64,000 nucleotides of DNA from Minisyncoccota bacterium. Its GTDB lineage: Bacteria > Patescibacteriota > Minisyncoccia > UBA6257 > JAGOQP01. This document shows, in pieces, positions 10,391 through 57,306 of this stretch. Numbering within the stretch: position 1 is the stretch's first letter; every line of letters starts with the position of its first letter. A program made the translations under genes and the position numbers. The DNA lies in contig JBAZTS010000002.1 in the NCBI GenBank assembly GCA_041661795.1, positions 36,263 through 100,262 on the forward strand. The letters are read 5' to 3'. A model generated the notes under the pieces. It was not told where the DNA came from, made no database searches, and saw only the letters and a list, made by a program, of their open reading frames with translations.

Positions 10391-10420
10391 AAAAACCCCT
10401 TTTGGGGTTTTTGTTTTTTT
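10391..10420 (+). terminator. rho-independent terminator
   Basis: aaaaaCCCCttttGGGGtttttgttttttt. Confidence 0.7.
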
Positions 10421-10421
10421 A

Positions 10422-10450
10422 CCCCCACACTAATGGAATTAGTGTGGGGG
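10422..10450. repeat. hairpin repeat CCCCCACACTAAT-n5-ATTAGTGTGGGGG (family copy a)
   Basis: Perfect 12-bp inverted repeat. Confidence 0.8.
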
Positions 10451-10469
10451 TTTATGGTAATATACTGGG

Positions 10470-15280: not shown

Positions 15281-15334
15281 ATGAGATTATTATATCACAA
15301 TGGTGATTTTTATTCACTAAGATTGTGGATAAAT

Positions 15335-15361
15335 CCCCACACTAATTCTATTAGTGTGGGG
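15335..15361. repeat. hairpin repeat CCCCACACTAAT-tct-ATTAGTGTGGGG (family copy b)
   Basis: Same stem sequence as copy a; between the lepB-like gene and the pilin-like gene. Confidence 0.8.
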
Positions 15362-15367
15362 ATAAAC

Positions 15368-16012: not shown

Positions 16013-18334
16013 ATGTTAAGCGACAATATACGCAATTTTTGTATTATAGCCCACATAGATCACGGCAAATCTACATTGGCTGATAGGTTGCTTGAAATTA
16101 CAGGAACTATAGATAAGAGGAAGATGAAGAACCAATATCTTGATCAATTGGAATTGGAAAGAGAAAGAGGGATAACTATCAAAATGGCTCCTGTCCGCAT
16201 GCTCTATGCGCTGACTAACGCCGACTCTACGCCGACTGACGCAGACAATAAGAAATTAGATAATGCGAGTAGTCAATTATTGTATGAAGATTTAACCTAT
16301 AAAATAAGAGGAGTGTTGTTTGGCGTAAAGAAAAAAATAGGACTTGGTCATAAAGAAGTTATTTACCAAAAGGCCATAGAAGAAGAATTGACAAAAGAGA
16401 ACATACCTTTTGAAAAAGAAAAAATAATTAATATAGAACTTGATAATAAAAGTCTTGGCGTATACAGACCAGATTTTGTTATTGATAATAAAATTATATT
16501 AGAGATAAAATCTTTGCCTTTTATTGGAGATGTTGAGAAAAGGCAAGTTTGGACATATCTTAAGGGATCAGAATATAAATTGGCTTTATTAGTCAATTTC
16601 AATTCTAGAGATATTGATATTAAAAGAGTTGTGTATGATACAGCCAGAGAAATTCAGCGTGAGTCAGCGTTTAGTCAGCGTAAGTCGGCGCAGGTTGAGC
16701 AGTATGTGCTCAACCTGATAGACACTCCCGGGCATCCGGATTTTGGTTATGAAGTTTCCAGAGCTTTGGAAGCGGTTGAGGGGGCAATTTTGTTGGTTGA
16801 TGGAATGCAAGGAATACAAGCACAAACGTTATCTAATTTTTATGCTGCCAAAAAAGCCGGACTTACAATTATTGGCGCGGTTAACAAAGTGGATTTAAAT
16901 ATTCCTGACATAGATAAAGTTGTAATGGAAACAGCGGAGCTAATTGGTTGTGGGCCAGAACAAATTCATAAAATATCAGGAAGAACAGGAGAGGGAGTTC
17001 AACAGCTTTTGGGAGCAGTTATTCTTAGAATCCTACCTCCAAAAGCTGTAATTCCCAATTTCCAATTCCCAATTTCCAATTTTGGAAGGGCATTAATATT
17101 TGATTCTTTTTATGACGACCACAAAGGAATTATAGCCAGTGTCAGGGTATTTAATGGAGAATTTAATCAGTTTGATGATGTGGTTTTGGTGGCTGCTAAA
17201 GAAAAATTTAAAACAAAAGAAGTCGGATATTTTTCTCCGACCCTAAATCCTTCAAAAAGAATTTTAGAGGGAGAGATAGGTTATTTGGTTACCGGGATAA
17301 GAGACCCGTATAAAATAAAAATCGGTGACACGGTAATAGGTCACAAATCACAAGTCGCGCATCACGAATCGTATGCTTTGCCCGGATACAAAGAACCAAA
17401 GCCGGTGGTGTTTGTTTCTTTCTATCCAGACAATCCGGATGAATATGATGATTTAAAAAAATCTTTGGAAAGATTAAAGCTTAACGACTCTTCTTTTGCT
17501 TTTGAGCCGGATTTAAATGAAGTGTTGGGCAGGGGATTTAAAGGAGGATTTTTGGGAAAGCTTCATTTTGAAATAATTTCTCAGCGTCTTGAAAGAGAGT
17601 TTGGAATAAAAACAATCACATCTTTTCCTTCGGTCAGTTATAAAATAAAAACTTCTTCCAAACACTTAGCTCATCTAAAATTGGACGAAGATGGATTTTT
17701 CATAGCGTATAATCCCAAAGATATTCCTGAAGAATTTGAAAAGATATTAGAACCGATGATAAAAGTTGAAATTGTTTCATCACAAAAAATATTGGGAACA
17801 GTTTTGGGACTTAAAGATGCTTTTCGTTGGGAATACATAGAGACCCAACAATTGGGAGAAAAAGTTATTATTAAAACCAGAATGCCCTTGGCTGAGCTTA
17901 TCTCGGATTTTGACGACCAGTTAAAATCGGTTTCAGGTGGATTTGCTTCTTTTAGTTATGAAGAAGACGGCTATCAACAGGGCGATTTAATTAGGATGGA
18001 TATTTTAGTGGCAGACGAAATAGTTCCTGGGCTTTCTAGAATTCTTCCCAAAAAAGACATAGAATATCCGGCCAGGAAAATGGTTGTTCGCTTAAAGGAA
18101 GTATTGCCTCATCAGCAATTTACCCAAGCTATTCAAGCCAAAGTCGGAGGGAGAATTATAGCCAGAGAAACTATTGCGGCTTTAAGAAAAGATGTGACCG
18201 GATATCTTTATGGAGGAGACAGAACAAGAAAAATGAAACTTTGGAAAAAACAGCAAAGAGGCAAAAAGAAACTTCTTTCTATGGCCAAAGTGACCATATC
18301 TCCAGAAAACTTCAAGAAACTTCTTTCAAAATAA
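16013..18334 (+). CDS. lepA: elongation factor 4 (LepA) carrying a ~165-aa in-frame insertion (GxxExxY/PDDEXK_3 domain) in the G domain
   Basis: N-terminal NFCIIAHIDHGKSTLADRLL, …LIDTPGHPDFGYEVSRAL…, NKVDL, and the LepA C-terminal domain; the insertion lies between the ITIK (G2) and DTPGH (G3) motifs. Confidence 0.9.
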   Translation: MLSDNIRNFCIIAHIDHGKSTLADRLLEITGTIDKRKMKNQYLDQLELERERGITIKMAPVRMLYALTNADSTPTDADNKKLDNASSQLLYEDLTYKIRGVLFGVKKKIGLGHKEVIYQKAIEEELTKENIPFEKEKIINIELDNKSLGVYRPDFVIDNKIILEIKSLPFIGDVEKRQVWTYLKGSEYKLALLVNFNSRDIDIKRVVYDTAREIQRESAFSQRKSAQVEQYVLNLIDTPGHPDFGYEVSRALEAVEGAILLVDGMQGIQAQTLSNFYAAKKAGLTIIGAVNKVDLNIPDIDKVVMETAELIGCGPEQIHKISGRTGEGVQQLLGAVILRILPPKAVIPNFQFPISNFGRALIFDSFYDDHKGIIASVRVFNGEFNQFDDVVLVAAKEKFKTKEVGYFSPTLNPSKRILEGEIGYLVTGIRDPYKIKIGDTVIGHKSQVAHHESYALPGYKEPKPVVFVSFYPDNPDEYDDLKKSLERLKLNDSSFAFEPDLNEVLGRGFKGGFLGKLHFEIISQRLEREFGIKTITSFPSVSYKIKTSSKHLAHLKLDEDGFFIAYNPKDIPEEFEKILEPMIKVEIVSSQKILGTVLGLKDAFRWEYIETQQLGEKVIIKTRMPLAELISDFDDQLKSVSGGFASFSYEEDGYQQGDLIRMDILVADEIVPGLSRILPKKDIEYPARKMVVRLKEVLPHQQFTQAIQAKVGGRIIARETIAALRKDVTGYLYGGDRTRKMKLWKKQQRGKKKLLSMAKVTISPENFKKLLSK
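16209..16693 (+). mobile_element. in-frame inserted element: GC-rich terminal inverted repeats (tandem decamers CGCYGACTNA / inverted AGTCRGCG) flanking an AT-rich GxxExxY (PDDEXK_3) nuclease-domain cargo
   Basis: Left TIR 16209-16244 (cgctgactaa cgccgactcta cgccgactgac); right TIR 16661-16693 (gagtcagcgt ttagtcagcgt aagtcggcg); cargo YKIRGVLFGV…GLGHKEVIYQKAIEEEL…YRPDFVIDNKIILEIKS…LALLVNFNS…IKRVV matches the GxxExxY family. Confidence 0.7.
17050..17084 (+). repeat. heptamer array AATTCCC-AATTTCC-AATTCCC-AATTTCC-AATTTTG in-frame within lepA
   Basis: Direct reading; encodes IPNFQFPISNF. Confidence 0.85.
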
Positions 18335-18365
18335 TTTTTATTTGTGTCTTTTTTTAAATAAGCTT

Positions 18366-18462
18366 TAGGAAAGATTTTGAGGCCATGCGGAAGACGGCGG
18401 TCTGAGCTAGAGGGATTTTTCAGCAGAAAAATACCCGTGCCTAAAAATTTTTTCTAAAGCGG
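18366..18462 (+). repeat. ~100-nt MITE-like element, copy 1 (imperfect TIRs GAAAGATTTTGAGG / CCTAAAAATTTTTTC flanking a conserved 60-nt core)
   Basis: Core GGCCATGCGGAAGACGGCGGTCTGAGCTAGAGGGATTTTTCAGCAGAAAAATACCCGTGCC; its reverse complement recurs at 46836-46932. Confidence 0.7.
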
Positions 18463-18472
18463 ATTAGTATTA

Positions 18473-18787
18473 TTGGTTGTAAGTTATTGGCTGTCTTGTT
18501 ATTATTTACTTATGAGTGTTAAGAGGGCTGTTTGGCTGACGGTTTTTGGTTTGTTTTTGCTACTTTTGTGGGTTAATTTATTTGTCATATTTAAAGAATT
18601 AAGAAAGTTGTCTTTGGAATACAAGCAAGTGAGTGAAGATTTTGTGAAACTGGAAGATGAAAACAAGATGATAGAAAGAGATATAGCTTTTTATTCTTTT
18701 CCGGCTAATTTAGAAAAGAATTTAAGAGAGAAATTTAATTATAAAAAAACGGGGGAGAAAATGATTATTGTTGTTCCGGGAAATTAA
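18473..18787 (+). CDS. FtsB/DivIC-like septum formation initiator (small bitopic membrane protein)
   Basis: A TM helix, then a coiled-coil (LRKLSLEYKQVSEDFVKLEDENKMIERDI), then a C-terminal …NLREKFNYKKTGEKMIIV resembling the FtsB C-terminal motif; the true start is probably the internal Met at about 18512. Confidence 0.45.
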   Translation: MVVSYWLSCYYLLMSVKRAVWLTVFGLFLLLLWVNLFVIFKELRKLSLEYKQVSEDFVKLEDENKMIERDIAFYSFPANLEKNLREKFNYKKTGEKMIIVVPGN

Positions 18788-19385: not shown

Positions 19386-19456
19386 AGCGGGATACGGGAA
19401 TCGAACCCGCGCTTCAACCTTGGGAAGGTCGTGTATTACCACTGTACTAATCCCGC
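19386..19456 (-). tRNA. tRNA-Gly (anticodon CCC)
   Basis: Reverse complement reads GCGGGAU…CGACC-UUCCCAA-GGUUG…GGGUUCGAUUCCC…AUCCCGC-U: 7-bp acceptor stem, T-loop UUCGAUU, anticodon loop UUCCCAA. Confidence 0.85.
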
Positions 19457-22071: not shown

Positions 22072-22418
22072 AAAGATAAGTGAGTGATTGCCCTGACATT
22101 TGTTGGGGAGGAAAGTCCGGACTCCCATCTCCGACGTAACGTCGGAGTAAACGTATTCGCTAACAGCGAACTATCGCAAGATAAGAGGTGCGAACAGAGA
22201 CGAGTCCTAATGGAAACATTAGGGGTGAAACGGTCCCGACGCCTATTTCGGGTTAGGGACTCCGACATCCGCAAGGATCGTCGGAGCTAAATCCTTGCGG
22301 GGTGCAAGACCGTATCCGCCCAGGGCGGGTGAGTCGCTTGAACCTGAGAGTAATTGAAGGTCCAGACAAATAATCACTATCCCGACGTAACGTCGGGACA
22401 CAGAATCCGGCTTATAGC
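22072..22418 (+). ncRNA. rnpB: RNase P RNA (bacterial type A)
   Basis: P4 consensus GGAGGAAAGUCCGGACUCC at 22109-22127; ACAGAAUCCGGCUUAUAG (ACAGARxxGGCUUA) near the 3' end; P1 pairing AGAUAAG/CUUAUCU; GC-rich relative to its surroundings. Confidence 0.8.
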
Positions 22419-22500
22419 TTATCTAAACATATCAAGAATCTCTCCTTAACGGGGGGATTTTTGATTGATTTATTAAGGGTTTTTTGATACTTTTAACAAG

Positions 22501-27781: not shown

Positions 27782-27852
27782 TGGGAGATCGTCTAATGGT
27801 AGGACAGCGGCCTTTGAAGCCGTGAATCGGGGTTCGAATCCCTGTCTCCCAG
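27782..27852 (+). tRNA. tRNA-Gln (anticodon UUG)
   Basis: UGGGAGA…GCGGC-CUUUGAA-GCCGU…CGGGGUUCGAAUCCCUG…UCUCCCA-G: cloverleaf with the T-loop UUCGAAU. Confidence 0.85.
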
Positions 27853-37176: not shown

Positions 37177-37310
37177 CCATACTATTCTTTTTACACCATC
37201 CTCTCTGCGCTTTTTATCAGCTCTTCCTTTTTTCTTTTGTTTATTGTATACCCTAATCAGTACTAAAAGAGAGCGATAAGGGCTCTTTTTACAGCTCTTT
37301 GACAGATACA

Positions 37311-37369
37311 CCCCCACACCAATTTTGCTTATTATCGTCAAGTGCGTGTTGGCAGAATTGGTGTGGGGG
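37311..37369. repeat. hairpin repeat variant CCCCCACACCAATT-n30-AATTGGTGTGGGGG (family copy c)
   Basis: 14-bp inverted repeat related to copies a and b, with a larger loop. Confidence 0.7.
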
Positions 37370-37418
37370 TAAATAGCGACTCTGCAAATCAGATTTAATA
37401 GAGTTTTAATGCAAAAAT

Positions 37419-46331: not shown

Positions 46332-46817
46332 TTATTTTATCTTCTGTATTGAAACATCATCTTCTTTTTGAATGGACAATTTGTCTATAGTTCCGGCATT
46401 TATTTCTAAGACCATATCAATTAATTGCTGAGGTAAAATTGTTATCGGATCTTCTCCGTTTTTTGGGTAATCAACATTTTTATCTACTCTCACCACTTTA
46501 TTGTTATTAATCCAGACAAAGTCCAGCGGGAATTTCATTTCTCTCATTGAAAATCCAACCGCCTGGCTTGTTCCAAAAATGAATAACATTCCTTTATCTT
46601 CTTCCATGAAAACTACTCCAGAAAGGCCTTGCGCTTTTTTATATGAAGAAGCCGAAACTTGAGCTTCTATTTCTTTTCCGTTGATTGATATTATGGCCGT
46701 GTTTTCGTCGTTCCATTCTATTTCTCCCTTTTGATAATAATTACTTACGATAAACCAAATCAAAAACAGCAAAGCAACGGAGATTATTATGATGAATAAA
46801 ATAGTAATCATTTTCAT
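46332..46817 (-). CDS. DUF192-family protein
   Basis: …GMLFIF…FSMREMKFPLDFVWINNNKVVRV… resembles the DUF192/COG1430 core. Confidence 0.5.
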   Translation of the reverse strand: MKMITILFIIIISVALLFLIWFIVSNYYQKGEIEWNDENTAIISINGKEIEAQVSASSYKKAQGLSGVVFMEEDKGMLFIFGTSQAVGFSMREMKFPLDFVWINNNKVVRVDKNVDYPKNGEDPITILPQQLIDMVLEINAGTIDKLSIQKEDDVSIQKIK

Positions 46818-46835
46818 GGGTTTTATTATTTCGTT

Positions 46836-46932
46836 TCAGAAAAGGTTTTGGGGCACGGGTATTTTTCTGCTGAAAAATCCCTCAAGCTCAGCCCGTCGGC
46901 TTCCGCACGGTCCCAAAACCTTTTCTAAAACT
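46836..46932 (-). repeat. ~100-nt MITE-like element, copy 2 (TIRs AGAAAAGGTTTTGGG / CCCAAAACCTTTTCT)
   Basis: Core is about 90% identical to the reverse complement of 18381-18441; 15-bp perfect flanking inverted repeats. Confidence 0.7.
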
Positions 46933-46955
46933 ACAAATATGTTAAAATCATTATT

Positions 46956-47384
46956 ATGAAAAATTATCTATATATAGCAATTGTGTTGGTTTTAGTTATC
47001 GGGGGAATCGTATATAATTCTTATAATAAAAATAACATAAATAATATGAGTAATACACAAGAGGGACTTATTATTGAGGACTTGATAGTTGGCGGTGGAA
47101 AAGAGGCGCAGGTTAAAGATAGTGTGGTGGTGAATTATGTAGGCACTCTTACCGATGGAACTAAGTTTGATAGCTCTTATGATAGAGGTCAGCCATTTCC
47201 TTTTATACTGGGAGCGGGCGACGTCATAAAGGGTTGGGACAAGGGAGTTTTAGGGATGAAAGTCGGTGGTAAAAGAAAATTAACAATTTCTCCCGAACTG
47301 GCTTATGGCGACAGTGGAGCCGGGTCAATTATCCCTCCCAACGCCACCTTGATATTTGAAGTTGAGTTATTAAAAGTTGAATAG
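46956..47384 (+). CDS. FKBP-type peptidyl-prolyl cis-trans isomerase
   Basis: [61 protein letters not shown]…LIFEVELL. Confidence 0.85.
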
Positions 47385-55467: not shown

Positions 55468-56607
55468 TTAATCGGTATATGTCCGTGACCGACGTAGTCG
55501 GTGGTATCGTATAGCAAATCTGTGGGCTTCGTTTCTTAACGAAAGTAATGTATTTTTAACATCTTCGGGGATTTGGCTCAAGCTGATAGGGGATTTTGAA
55601 TAGGGACTGTAAATCAATCCTTTTGTTTGTGATCTTTTATATTTCTTGCCAACATCGTTAATTAACTTACCATTACAATTAGAACGATCGTTGTAATTGT
55701 AATGGTGTGGATTATTACCCACAGATTGCAATTTGCCCACGTTTAGTTTTGCTAGAGCTATCATCGGAATCTTAATTGTTTTGAGTTGTGAGATTTGTGA
55801 TTTTCCTCCGTCAATGATAATTAAATCCGGATATTTCCATTCTTTGTGGTTAAGGCGTCTTTCTATAATTTCTTTTATTGAAGCCGGGTCATTGGCTCCT
55901 TTTATCGTTTTTATTTTAAATTTTCTGTAAAGATTTTTATTAGGTTTATTTCCGATAAACGTTACCATTGAGCCAACTGACAAACTACCTTGGGTATTGG
56001 AAATGTCGTAGCACTCAATATGTGTTTTTTCTCCATTATATAAACGAAGAAAAGTTTTTAATCCATTAACCACCTGGATGTATTTTTTTACTTCGATATT
56101 ATGAGCGGAACATAACCCTAAGTGATAATACAAGCACGGCTTTTCCGGTTTATTTTTACATGTGCGATAGGGGAATATTCTTCTGATTATCAATAAGAGA
56201 TGCTTAATCTCTTTTGCGTCTACAAACGGGCCAACAAAATCGGCTTTAAATTTTTTTGTTTGGTGTGTTAAAAGCACTCTGGGGTACTTTTCGTCGGTAA
56301 AAGCTATATACAAAAAATCCTTGTCATCTTTAAGTTCAATGTTATATTTTGGCTGATACTGTCTAACTAATTTTCTTTCTAAAATCAAGGCGTCTTTTTC
56401 AGATGGGGTTTCTATAAAATCTAAGTCAGCTACTTGTTTGTAAAAATTAATAGAAGCATTCTCTTGTCTAGAAAAATGCGATTCTATTCTCTTTTTTATA
56501 TTAATAGCTTTTCCGATATACAAAATCTTCTCATTCTTATCTTTGAAAATATATACTCCCGGTTTCTTAGGAAGTGCTTTTATCTTATTCTTCAGGATTG
56601 TTTTCAC
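55468..56607 (-). CDS. uvrC: minimal UvrC-like endonuclease (GIY-YIG, Cys motif and C-terminal endonuclease domain; no UvrB-binding or HhH domains), with a 36-bp palindrome in-frame
   Basis: GVYIFKDKNEKILYIGKAINIKKRIESHF (GIY-YIG); YRTCKNKPEKPCLYYHLGLC; IECYDISNTQG…DLIIIDGGKSQ…NEAHRFAIRYHR matches the UvrC catalytic D/D/H triad region; 379 aa. Confidence 0.7.
   Translation of the reverse strand: MKTILKNKIKALPKKPGVYIFKDKNEKILYIGKAINIKKRIESHFSRQENASINFYKQVADLDFIETPSEKDALILERKLVRQYQPKYNIELKDDKDFLYIAFTDEKYPRVLLTHQTKKFKADFVGPFVDAKEIKHLLLIIRRIFPYRTCKNKPEKPCLYYHLGLCSAHNIEVKKYIQVVNGLKTFLRLYNGEKTHIECYDISNTQGSLSVGSMVTFIGNKPNKNLYRKFKIKTIKGANDPASIKEIIERRLNHKEWKYPDLIIIDGGKSQISQLKTIKIPMIALAKLNVGKLQSVGNNPHHYNYNDRSNCNGKLINDVGKKYKRSQTKGLIYSPYSKSPISLSQIPEDVKNTLLSLRNEAHRFAIRYHRLRRSRTYTD
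55670..55705. repeat. 36-bp palindrome CCATTACAATTAGAACGATCGTTgTAATTGTAATGG (copy 1, in-frame inside the uvrC-like CDS)
   Basis: Near-perfect palindrome; translated as …HHYNYNDRSNCN… within the 379-aa ORF. Confidence 0.85.
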
Positions 56608-56645
56608 TGTTTTTTTATTTTTATCCTTATCTTAATCTTAATCTA

Positions 56646-56681
56646 CCATTACATTTAGAACGATCGTTCTAAATGTAATGG
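56646..56681. repeat. 36-bp perfect palindrome CCATTACATTTAGAACGATCGTTCTAAATGTAATGG (copy 2, intergenic)
   Basis: Between the uvrC-like start and the PaaX-like stop. Confidence 0.85.
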
Positions 56682-56684
56682 TGG

Positions 56685-57245: not shown

Positions 57246-57270
57246 AACAATATTATATCATCATTTATTA

Positions 57271-57306
57271 CCATTACAATTAGAACGATCGTTCTAATTG
57301 TAATGG
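57271..57306. repeat. 36-bp perfect palindrome CCATTACAATTAGAACGATCGTTCTAATTGTAATGG (copy 3, upstream of the PaaX-like gene)
   Basis: Lies 26 nt upstream of the PaaX-like start codon. Confidence 0.85.

What the first reader, a model, noticed from the sequence alone, without database searches (positions are those of the whole stretch)
18366..18462. ~100-nt MITE-like element present twice in opposite orientation (second copy 46836-46932)
A 60-nt core (…TGCGGAAGNCGNCGGNCTGAGCTNGAGGGATTTTTCAGCAGAAAAATACCCGTGCC) is about 90% identical between the two loci. It contains an internal hairpin (GGGUAUUUUU-CUGCUG-AAAAAUCCC) and is bounded at each locus by roughly 15-bp terminal inverted repeats (AGAAAAGGTTTTGGG…CCCAAAACCTTTTCT at locus 2). 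One copy follows lepA; the other lies in the divergent DUF192/fkpA promoter region. This fits a miniature inverted-repeat transposable element, or a conserved small regulatory RNA or riboswitch-like unit.
Basis: seen in the sequence. Interest (0 to 1): 0.5.

Follow-up and report, generated by a model that had tools for sequence, protein, structure and literature searches.

The report
Structured 99-nt interspersed repeat, Paceibacterota
A 99-base palindromic element that folds into a three-armed hairpin sits at three or more unrelated intergenic spots in one uncultured Paceibacterota (CPR) genome; it is most likely a small mobile repeat kept in shape by selection, which is a familiar kind of element, though this is a new family with a few odd features.

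Summary
There are two 99-nt copies, at 18362-18460 (+) and 46833-46931 (-). They are 83/99 identical and share an exact 32-mer. A third copy lies on another contig of the same MAG (L049 7644-7742).

All three fold into the same three-way junction: a 22-bp closing stem P1, a hairpin P2 with a GGA/GA internal loop, and a hairpin P3. Pairing is kept in 98% of cells, and 7 pairs show compensatory double changes. All 5 wobble pairs are G-U on one strand. The 55-nt core is nearly invariant, whereas P1 varies.

Homology stops exactly at the stem ends. The three contexts are unrelated: after lepA, in the DUF192/FKBP divergent spacer, and upstream of a DGR target-gene promoter. Orientation relative to the neighbouring genes is inconsistent. 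The nearest relatives lack the element at sites 1 and 3.

I found no Rfam family, target-site duplication, transposase, shared promoter or decayed copies. There were no hits in GTDB representative genomes, viral contigs, phages or plasmids.

Verdict: a discrete, species-restricted, structure-constrained interspersed repeat, MITE/ERIC-like in the broad sense. It is not a riboswitch. A multicopy stand-alone ncRNA is the main rival. Interest is modest.

The parts
18362..18460 (+). Copy 1 of the 99-nt element (favoured folding strand is +)
   Evidence: Alignments A2/A4. CM R1 115.6 bits, R2 111 bits. RNA MFE -38.9 kcal/mol against -28.9 on the complement.
18362..18383 (+). Copy 1, P1 5' arm (22 nt, the 'left TIR')
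   Evidence: Pairs with 18439-18460. 21 of 22 pairs form, 2 of them G-U.
18387..18407 (+). Copy 1, hairpin P2: GC / GGA..GA internal loop / AGAC-GGCG-GUCU
   Evidence: MFE and RNAalifold structures. Pair 33-40 is A-U here and C-G in copies 2 and 3.
18412..18436 (+). Copy 1, hairpin P3: GGGAUUUUUC-AGCA-GAAAAAU(A)CCC, invariant in all copies
   Evidence: Lies within the exact 32-mer.
18439..18460 (+). Copy 1, P1 3' arm (the 'right TIR')
46833..46931 (-). Copy 2 of the element (favoured folding strand is -)
   Evidence: CM R1 115.8 bits, R2 114.9 bits. RNA MFE -46.8 kcal/mol against -43.2 on the complement.
46910..46931 (-). Copy 2, P1 5' arm
   Evidence: Pairs with 46833-46854. 21 of 22 pairs form, one of them U-G.
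46886..46906 (-). Copy 2, hairpin P2 (AGCC-GACG-GGCU with the GGA/GA internal loop)
46857..46881 (-). Copy 2, hairpin P3
46833..46854 (-). Copy 2, P1 3' arm
16013..18334 (+). lepA (with a PD-(D/E)XK_3 insertion), upstream neighbour of copy 1. Context only.
   Evidence: Pfam. In relatives the LepA-DivIC spacer is 36-53 nt, against 177 nt here.
18477..18505 (+). Promoter-like site (TTGTAA-17-TATTAT, TG-extended) for the DivIC-like gene (ATG 18512). It lies downstream of copy 1, so copy 1 is not in that gene's leader.
46332..46817 (-). DUF192 gene. Its ATG is 15 nt from the 3' end of copy 2. Context only.
   Evidence: Pfam.
46956..47384 (+). FKBP-type PPIase gene, divergent from DUF192. Its ATG is 24 nt from the 5' end of copy 2. 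Context only.
   Evidence: Pfam.

Best explanation
This is a discrete, non-autonomous interspersed repeat of 99 bp. It is MITE-like in the broad sense and closest in behaviour to ERIC/Correia-type palindromic repeats. It has spread to at least three intergenic sites of one Paceibacterota genome.

Shown:
- The unit has identical boundaries in all three copies, at the ends of a 22-bp terminal stem.
- The three sites are unrelated, and the nearest available relatives lack the element at two of them.
- One strand folds into a three-way junction (P1, P2, P3). Its pairing is preserved by compensatory and G-U changes, and the 55-nt core is almost invariant.

Inferred:
- It was dispersed by an enzyme acting in trans that has not been found. 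That enzyme, or the selection that retains copies, recognises the folded structure and core rather than the sequence of the terminal repeats.
- When neighbouring transcription reads through it (from lepA for copy 1, from the predicted promoter at 46980-46953 for copy 2), the transcript forms a long double-stranded stem. That stem could serve as an RNase III-type processing site or a 3'-end stabiliser, as described for Correia and ERIC elements. The element would then modulate its neighbours rather than sense a ligand.
For: - Three full-length copies score 111-116 bits with the CM.
- All three are in the same MAG. The neighbouring proteins have adjacent NCBI accessions in two MAG versions (MFA6136036/6136075/6136345 and MFA6353046/6352689/6352787), and both contigs come from the same ENA sample.
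- Homology ends exactly at the P1 ends.
- The contexts are unrelated.
- Site 1: syntenic relatives have a 36-53 nt LepA-DivIC spacer and no CM hit.
- Site 3: relatives at 58-65% identity keep the promoter and leader of the DGR target gene but have no element upstream.
- The Logan k=31 contigs break inside the element, as expected for a repeat.
- Structure: 98.2% of cells are paired and 7 pairs have changes on both sides, against 0-2 in slid controls and 1/500 shuffles. RNAalifold gives the same fold independently.
- All 5 wobble pairs are G-U on one strand, and that strand is 3.6-10.5 kcal/mol more stable in every copy.
- There is no shared promoter or terminator.
- Size, TIRs, AT-rich intergenic location and stem-loop transcripts match the published MITE description (PMC10969869, section 2.1).
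Against: - No target-site duplication at any copy.
- No transposase, parent IS or extra TIR-like sites in about 103 kb of the genome.
- Only three copies are known, and a filter-free CM search found no decayed or partial copies.
- The terminal repeats vary more than the core: 16/44 against 5/55 variable columns, Fisher p=0.0012. This is the reverse of what is expected if a transposase reads the TIR sequence.
- The copies differ by 11-16%, so there was no recent burst.
- The relatives used as 'empty sites' are distant (LepA 64-72% identity), so a lineage-specific RNA gene would also be absent there.
- Transcription and RNase III cleavage are not shown.
Confidence: 0.55

Rival explanations
1. 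A small family of stand-alone, trans-acting (or protein-binding) structured ncRNA genes. The conserved 55-nt core is the functional part, and P1 is a closing or processing stem that only needs to pair.
For: The core is nearly invariant while P1 covaries. All copies are full length and structurally intact, with no decayed copies. G-U pairs occur on one strand only, and that strand is more stable in all three copies. There is no TSD and no transposase. A GGA/GA internal loop compatible with tandem sheared G-A pairs, and an invariant AGCA loop, could be protein or RNA contact sites (read from the sequence).
Against: There is no shared promoter or terminator, and homology stops exactly at the stem ends, so any duplication carried no regulatory flank. 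Copy 3 on the favoured strand is antisense to both neighbours and has no promoter-like site. No relative or other taxon has it: GTDB pattern scan, about 100 kb of relatives scanned with the CM. No Rfam family matches.
Confidence: 0.2
2. A mobile element or recombination substrate that is read as folded single-stranded DNA, in the manner of IS200/IS605-derived PATEs, REP/RAYT or attC. G-T wobbles are tolerated on one strand, and no TSD is made.
For: There is no TSD. Structure is conserved rather than terminal sequence. The strand asymmetry also holds with DNA parameters. The unit has discrete boundaries.
Against: No Y1 transposase, RAYT or integron integrase appears among the called genes of about 103 kb. 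The element has long terminal inverted repeats, which IS200/IS605 ends lack. Its ends read GTTTTAG...CTAAAAC, the reverse arrangement of the attC R''/R' cores (RYYYAAC...GTTRRRY; from my own knowledge). There is no conserved flanking tetranucleotide. Copies 1 and 2 are in opposite orientation within a stretch of uniformly positive GC skew, so there is no consistent orientation relative to replication.
Confidence: 0.12
3. A cis-regulatory leader or riboswitch that controls the downstream gene (DivIC-like or DUF192).
For: On the favoured strand, copies 1 and 2 lie 5' of a same-strand gene. The three-way-junction architecture superficially resembles small riboswitches.
Against: The downstream genes are unrelated. 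Copy 3 is antisense to both neighbours. The promoter of the DivIC-like gene is predicted downstream of copy 1. Relatives with the same gene order lack the element. There is no expression platform or terminator. No Rfam family matches.
Confidence: 0.03
4. A chance similarity or an assembly artefact.
For: None beyond the metagenomic origin of the sequence.
Against: 0 of 100 shuffles give even one 32-mer match. Each copy has unique, individually compensated P1 arms. The same copies appear in independent assemblies from ENA, JGI/NCBI and Logan.
Confidence: 0.01

Closest known systems
Bacterial MITEs of the Correia (CREE, Neisseria) and QMITE2 (Coxiella) type
   Same: About 100-150 bp with no ORF. 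TIRs of 20-30 bp. Located in AT-rich intergenic DNA next to gene ends and promoters. Transcripts fold into long stem-loops. Correia stems are cut by RNase III (PMC10969869).
   Different: There is no TSD (Correia makes TA, QMITE2 has 7-9 bp direct repeats). No sequence similarity. The TIR is less conserved than the core. Only 3 copies are known. No cognate IS is known.
ERIC / IRU sequences of Enterobacteriaceae
   Same: An imperfect palindrome of about 127 bp in transcribed intergenic regions, in either orientation, with no known transposase. From my own knowledge (Wilson & Sharp 2006, listed as ref. 44 in PMC10969869): its evolution is compatible with constraint on RNA secondary structure. 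The copy number can be low (about 30 in E. coli K-12).
   Different: Unrelated sequence and host phylum. ERIC is a single long hairpin, whereas this element has a three-way junction with two inner hairpins. ERIC is shared by many genera, whereas this element has been seen in one species only.
REP / REPIN elements mobilised by RAYT
   Same: Short palindromic intergenic repeats that act through a folded single strand and make no TSD.
   Different: REPs have a conserved 5' GTAG and conserved arms around a variable loop, and they come with a RAYT gene. Here the arms vary, the interior is conserved, no GTAG is shared, and no RAYT was seen.
Multicopy sRNA paralogue families (e.g. Qrr1-5, LhrC1-5; from my own knowledge)
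   Same: Several dispersed copies with a conserved functional core and covarying stems.
   Different: Those paralogues carry their own conserved promoters and Rho-independent terminators. Here homology ends at the stem ends, and no promoter or terminator is shared.

Membership tests
MITE (prokaryotic; definition in PMC10969869, section 2.1) | Length under 500 bp with no coding capacity | tested here: met
   99 bp. The only overlapping ORF is a spurious 56-aa frame that spans the intergenic spacer.
MITE (prokaryotic; definition in PMC10969869, section 2.1) | Terminal inverted repeats of about 4-30 bp | tested here: met
   22-bp arms, with 21-22 of 22 positions paired in each copy.
MITE (prokaryotic; definition in PMC10969869, section 2.1) | Flanking direct repeats (target-site duplication), at least in young copies | tested here: not met
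   No direct repeat of 3 nt or more within 3 nt of either junction in any of the 3 copies. The review notes that direct repeats fade with age, so this is not decisive.
MITE (prokaryotic; definition in PMC10969869, section 2.1) | Several dispersed copies in AT-rich intergenic regions, with stable stem-loop transcripts | tested here: met
   3 copies at unrelated intergenic sites of one genome. Folding z-scores are -5.9 to -6.1. Transcription itself was not tested.
MITE (prokaryotic; definition in PMC10969869, section 2.1) | A cognate autonomous IS or transposase with matching TIRs | tested here: inconclusive
   None was found in about 103 kb of the genome (gene lists; TIR search). The rest of the MAG could not be reached.
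MITE (prokaryotic; definition in PMC10969869, section 2.1) | Evidence of insertion (empty sites in related genomes or strains) | tested here: inconclusive
   Relatives lack the element at site 1 and site 3. They are distant (58-72% protein identity), and no same-species strain without the element was available.
Riboswitch / cis-regulatory leader | A constant position and orientation in the 5' UTR of functionally related genes, conserved across species | tested here: not met
   The neighbours are unrelated, copy 3 is antisense, a promoter lies downstream of copy 1, and relatives lack the element.
Any described RNA family (Rfam 15, including self-cleaving ribozymes, SRP, 6S, Y RNA) | A covariance-model match at or near the gathering score | tested here: not met
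   The gathering scan found only RNase P and 2 tRNAs. E-value scans of both loci gave only sub-threshold miRNA-precursor-type hairpin noise.
Integron attC site | R''(RYYYAAC)...R'(GTTRRRY) cores, and an integrase or cassette array | tested here: not met
   The ends read GTTTTAG...CTAAAAC, the reverse arrangement. The interior sequence is conserved. No integrase or array is nearby. The attC consensus is from my own knowledge.
REP/REPIN | A conserved 5' GTAG plus conserved palindrome arms, and a RAYT gene in the genome | tested here: inconclusive
   No shared GTAG, and the arms are the variable part. RAYT was not seen in the accessible 103 kb, and the whole genome was not testable.

The most novel reading that the evidence does not exclude
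The element is a new class of functional structured RNA specific to this Paceibacterota lineage. The invariant 55-nt three-way-junction core, with its tandem-GA-type internal loop and AGCA loop, would be a catalytic or protein-binding module. The 22-bp stem would be its processing or mobility handle. It might be copied to new sites through an RNA intermediate by one of the genome's reverse transcriptases; a DGR reverse transcriptase lies 1.7 kb from copy 3.
Probability: 0.08. Interest if true: 0.7.

Novelty: new member of a known kind. Interest (0 to 1): 0.3.

Why it matters
CPR/Patescibacteria genomes are tiny and streamlined, and little is known about their repeats and non-coding RNAs. This would be a dispersed element in such a genome that is kept intact by selection on structure. 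It has a near-invariant core and covarying terminal stems, and it lacks the usual transposon hallmarks. That makes it a small but clean test case for how palindromic repeats persist, and for whether they act as RNA, in reduced genomes. In practice it also breaks k-mer assemblies and sits directly upstream of promoters, so it matters for annotation of these MAGs. On present evidence it does not open a new biological question.

Tried and rejected
- **Rfam.** A gathering scan of the window and E-value scans of both loci found no family.
- **GTDB pattern scan.** The pattern GCGGAAGN{7,12}CTGAGCTNGAGGG returned 42 stretches. All are chance matches, mostly coding '..AELEG..' frames, and none has the P3 hairpin or a CM hit.
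- **Viral scans.** Searches gave 0 hits. One search used a wrong gap (9 N instead of 8) and is void.
- **Metagenome scan.** It gave one hit, copy 3. It did not return copies 1 and 2, although JGI is listed as a source of their neighbouring proteins. Negatives from that collection are therefore soft.
- **blastn against phages and plasmids.** Only short chance matches inside coding genes.
- **DUF192 homologue search for an empty site 2.** The best relatives are 40% identical or less, so this was useless.
- **Look-up of the 194-aa neighbour for strain variants.** Not on record.
- **Weak CM hits.** Hits at window 37310, 56643 and 57271, and at L060 553 and L003 2720, are unrelated simple hairpins that match only the P1 pairs.
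- **Motifs considered by eye and rejected.** Hammerhead: the CUGA and GAA are present, but the junction strands are in the wrong order. Classical K-turn: the bulge is 1 nt, not 3. SRP RNA domain IV: the GGAA and AGCAG are 35 nt apart. tRNA-like T-loop: position 58 is wrong. CRISPR repeat or tracr-like: the GTTTTAG...AAAAC ends are suggestive, but there is no array and no cas gene.
- **A 36-nt hairpin in the leader next to copy 3 as a deleted derivative.** It is unique, not repeated.
- **Orientation relative to replication.** No consistent pattern.

Full report
**1. Observation**

Reading the two loci and aligning them with flanks shows a 99-nt unit at 18362-18460 (+) and 46833-46931 (-). The two copies differ at 16 of 99 positions. 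A 32-mer is identical in both. It occurs exactly twice in the window, and none is expected from shuffles. The same holds for the 5' half of the core. The pair is the longest inverted repeat in the 64-kb window.

The terminal inverted repeats are 22 bp rather than about 15. Pfam confirms the neighbouring genes:
- LepA (16013-18334) ends 27 nt before copy 1.
- A DivIC-like gene (ATG 18512) follows copy 1.
- Copy 2 fills 99 of the 138 nt between the divergent DUF192 and FKBP genes.

**2. Structure**

Each copy folds into the same three-way junction:
- a 22-bp closing stem, P1;
- hairpin P2: GC, a GGA/GA internal loop, then a 4-bp stem with a GRCG loop;
- hairpin P3: GGGAUUUUUC-AGCA-GAAAAAU(A)CCC.

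Z-scores are about -6. RNAalifold predicts the same architecture independently.

On the three-copy alignment A4, the pair counts are as follows:
- 98.2% of pair cells form standard pairs.
- Seven pairs carry changes on both sides, six in P1 and one in P2b. Slid-partner controls give 0-2, and 1 of 500 column shuffles reaches this number.
- All five wobble pairs are G-U on one strand (+ for copy 1, - for copies 2 and 3). On the complement they would be A-C mismatches.

That strand is the more stable one in every copy, in kcal/mol (the same direction holds with DNA parameters):

| Copy | Favoured strand | Complement |
|---|---|---|
| 1 | -38.9 | -28.9 |
| 2 | -46.8 | -43.2 |
| 3 | -47.0 | -36.5 |

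Variation is concentrated in P1: 16 of 44 columns vary there, against 5 of 55 in the core (Fisher p=0.0012). With only three sequences the wobble asymmetry is suggestive rather than conclusive (one-sided p about 0.03). P3 never varies, so the data say nothing for or against it.

**3. Origin, and the third copy**

The window comes from a 156-kb metagenomic contig (ENA ERZ27249449 k141_214873). NCBI labels the organism Candidatus Paceibacterota bacterium.

A low-noise pattern built only from loop and junction bases was checked on the window first. In the JGI metagenome collection it found one further copy, on Ga0172379_10001246 (L049 7644-7742, - strand). That copy scores 111.8 bits and has an identical core. 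Its P1 is again different and fully compensated.

The same contig is present in the same ENA sample and the same Logan run as the window (L054, L055). The proteins next to the three copies have neighbouring NCBI accessions in two MAG versions. The three copies therefore belong to one genome.

In total I could scan about 103 kb of that genome: the window, two 8.5-10 kb extensions, and 20.7 kb around copy 3. CM searches found exactly three full-length copies, and filter-free searches found no degenerate ones. The Logan k=31 contigs break inside the element, as expected for a repeat with an exact run of 31 nt or more.

**4. Context**

Outside the element, the copy-3 contig has no similarity to the window. 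Copy 3 lies 17 nt after the stop of a lamin-tail-domain gene and 6 nt before the -35 of a strong promoter (TTGACT-17-TATAAT). That promoter drives a 247-aa gene followed by bAvd and a reverse transcriptase, i.e. a DGR cassette. On its favoured strand, copy 3 is antisense to both neighbours, and no promoter-like site precedes it.

Copy 1 is co-oriented with lepA and the DivIC-like gene. The promoter-like site of the latter lies downstream of the element. Copy 2 sits in a divergent spacer, with a promoter-like site upstream of it on its own strand.

The three copies share no promoter, terminator or flanking motif. Homology ends within a base of the P1 ends in all three.

**5. Relatives**

*Site 1.* The nearest LepA relatives (64-72% identity) keep the gene order S26 peptidase-LepA-DivIC-194 aa-PGK. 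Their LepA-DivIC spacers are only 53 and 36 nt, against 177 nt here, and they give no CM hit in 22 kb each.

*Site 3.* Relatives whose target protein is 58-65% identical keep the promoter and an alignable leader of about 110 nt. Upstream of the -35 they have unrelated short sequence instead of the element.

*Site 2.* This could not be tested, because DUF192 homologues are 40% identical or less.

*Wider searches.* The GTDB pattern scan returned only chance coding matches. Viral contigs, phage records and plasmids gave nothing. The metagenome scan is not exhaustive: it missed copies 1 and 2, although JGI is listed as holding their neighbouring proteins. Absence elsewhere is therefore soft evidence.

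**6. Interpretation**

Four features point to a unit that was inserted, i.e. a non-autonomous interspersed repeat:
- exact, shared boundaries;
- unrelated insertion contexts;
- inconsistent orientation;
- absence at equivalent sites in relatives.

It meets the descriptive MITE criteria of size, TIRs, AT-rich intergenic location and stem-loop transcripts (PMC10969869, section 2.1). It fails or leaves open the mechanistic ones:
- no target-site duplication;
- no transposase or parent IS in the accessible DNA;
- terminal repeats that are the least conserved part.

That last point, together with compensatory evolution, one-strand G-U pairs, 11-16% divergence between copies and no decayed copies, indicates selection on a folded single strand and on the core sequence. 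This resembles what has been argued for ERIC sequences, and the RNase III-processed Correia elements (the ERIC constraint is from my own knowledge of Wilson & Sharp 2006).

I therefore favour, at about 0.55, a structure-dependent mobile repeat that acts when co-transcribed with its neighbours. The main rival, at about 0.2, is a small family of stand-alone structured ncRNAs. A substrate folded as single-stranded DNA (IS200/REP/attC-like) stands at about 0.12. A riboswitch or leader is essentially excluded. Transcription, cleavage and the mobilising enzyme are all inferred, not shown.

**7. Novelty and score**

The sequence family is new: it has no Rfam match and no similar sequence in any collection searched. 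The kind of element, a small palindromic interspersed repeat, is well known. The unusual details make it a neat case in a CPR genome, but not a surprise to a specialist. Those details are a three-way junction, a core conserved more strongly than the TIRs, and the lack of a TSD. Interest 0.3.

The most novel reading not excluded is a new functional or catalytic RNA module that spreads through an RNA intermediate. I put it at about 0.08.

Noticed in passing
window 16013-18334 (+): LepA carries a PD-(D/E)XK_3 (GxxExxY) nuclease-like domain inserted at aa 93-206, inside the GTPase domain. Dozens of Paceibacterota, Liptonbacteria and Wolfebacteria LepA homologues share the insertion, while others lack it.
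   Followed up: partly
window 55669-55706, 56645-56682, 57270-57306: There are three copies of a 38-nt near-perfect palindrome, ACCATTACAATTAGAACGATCGTTCTAATTGTAATGGT. They lie around the 3' part of uvrC and a PaaX_M-domain gene, between uvrB/uvrC and uvrA, next to about 1 kb with no called gene. This may be a second small repeat family or a set of operator sites.
   Followed up: no
window 10418-10455, 15329-15366, 37310-37370: A family of hairpins shares the arms CCCCACAC(T/C)AAT...ATT(A/G)GTGTGGGG. They are probably terminators with a shared stem sequence.
   Followed up: no
L053 9850-10000 (= L049 7743-7893); relatives L056 7283-7457, L059 2150-2299: The promoter (TTGAC-17-TGCTATAAT) and a leader of about 110 nt (…ACAAACTGGAATAAGGTGACATTGGGTCAYCTTGTCCAGA…AAGAAGTGAAC[variable hairpin]CAGAAAGGGAAAGCTCATG) upstream of the 247-aa DGR target gene are conserved among Paceibacterota whose proteins are only 58-65% identical. 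This is a candidate cis-regulatory RNA, and no Rfam family reaches its gathering score there.
   Followed up: partly
L053 10001-12508 and 12832-17951: The copy-3 contig carries a DGR cassette (247-aa target, bAvd on the opposite strand, RVT_1). It also holds a 23S rRNA gene with a group I intron (LAGLIDADG ORFs are called in the ENA version), 5S rRNA, tmRNA, and an IleRS with a His_Phos_1 domain insertion.
   Followed up: partly
window 18500-18514 and 46944-46958: -10-like boxes end only about 6-7 nt before the ATG of the DivIC-like and FKBP genes. The same holds in relatives L003 and L004, which suggests leaderless mRNAs are common in this lineage.
   Followed up: no
window 22072-22430 (+), 19386-19456 (-), 27782-27852 (+): RNase P RNA (class A, 138.8 bits) and two tRNA genes. 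These are the only Rfam families at gathering score in the window.
   Followed up: yes
Metagenome-contig collection: The pattern scan returned only the copy-3 contig, although JGI/IMG is listed as a source of the proteins that flank copies 1 and 2. The collection, or the stored contigs, are incomplete or broken at the repeat, so negative scans should be read cautiously.
   Followed up: no
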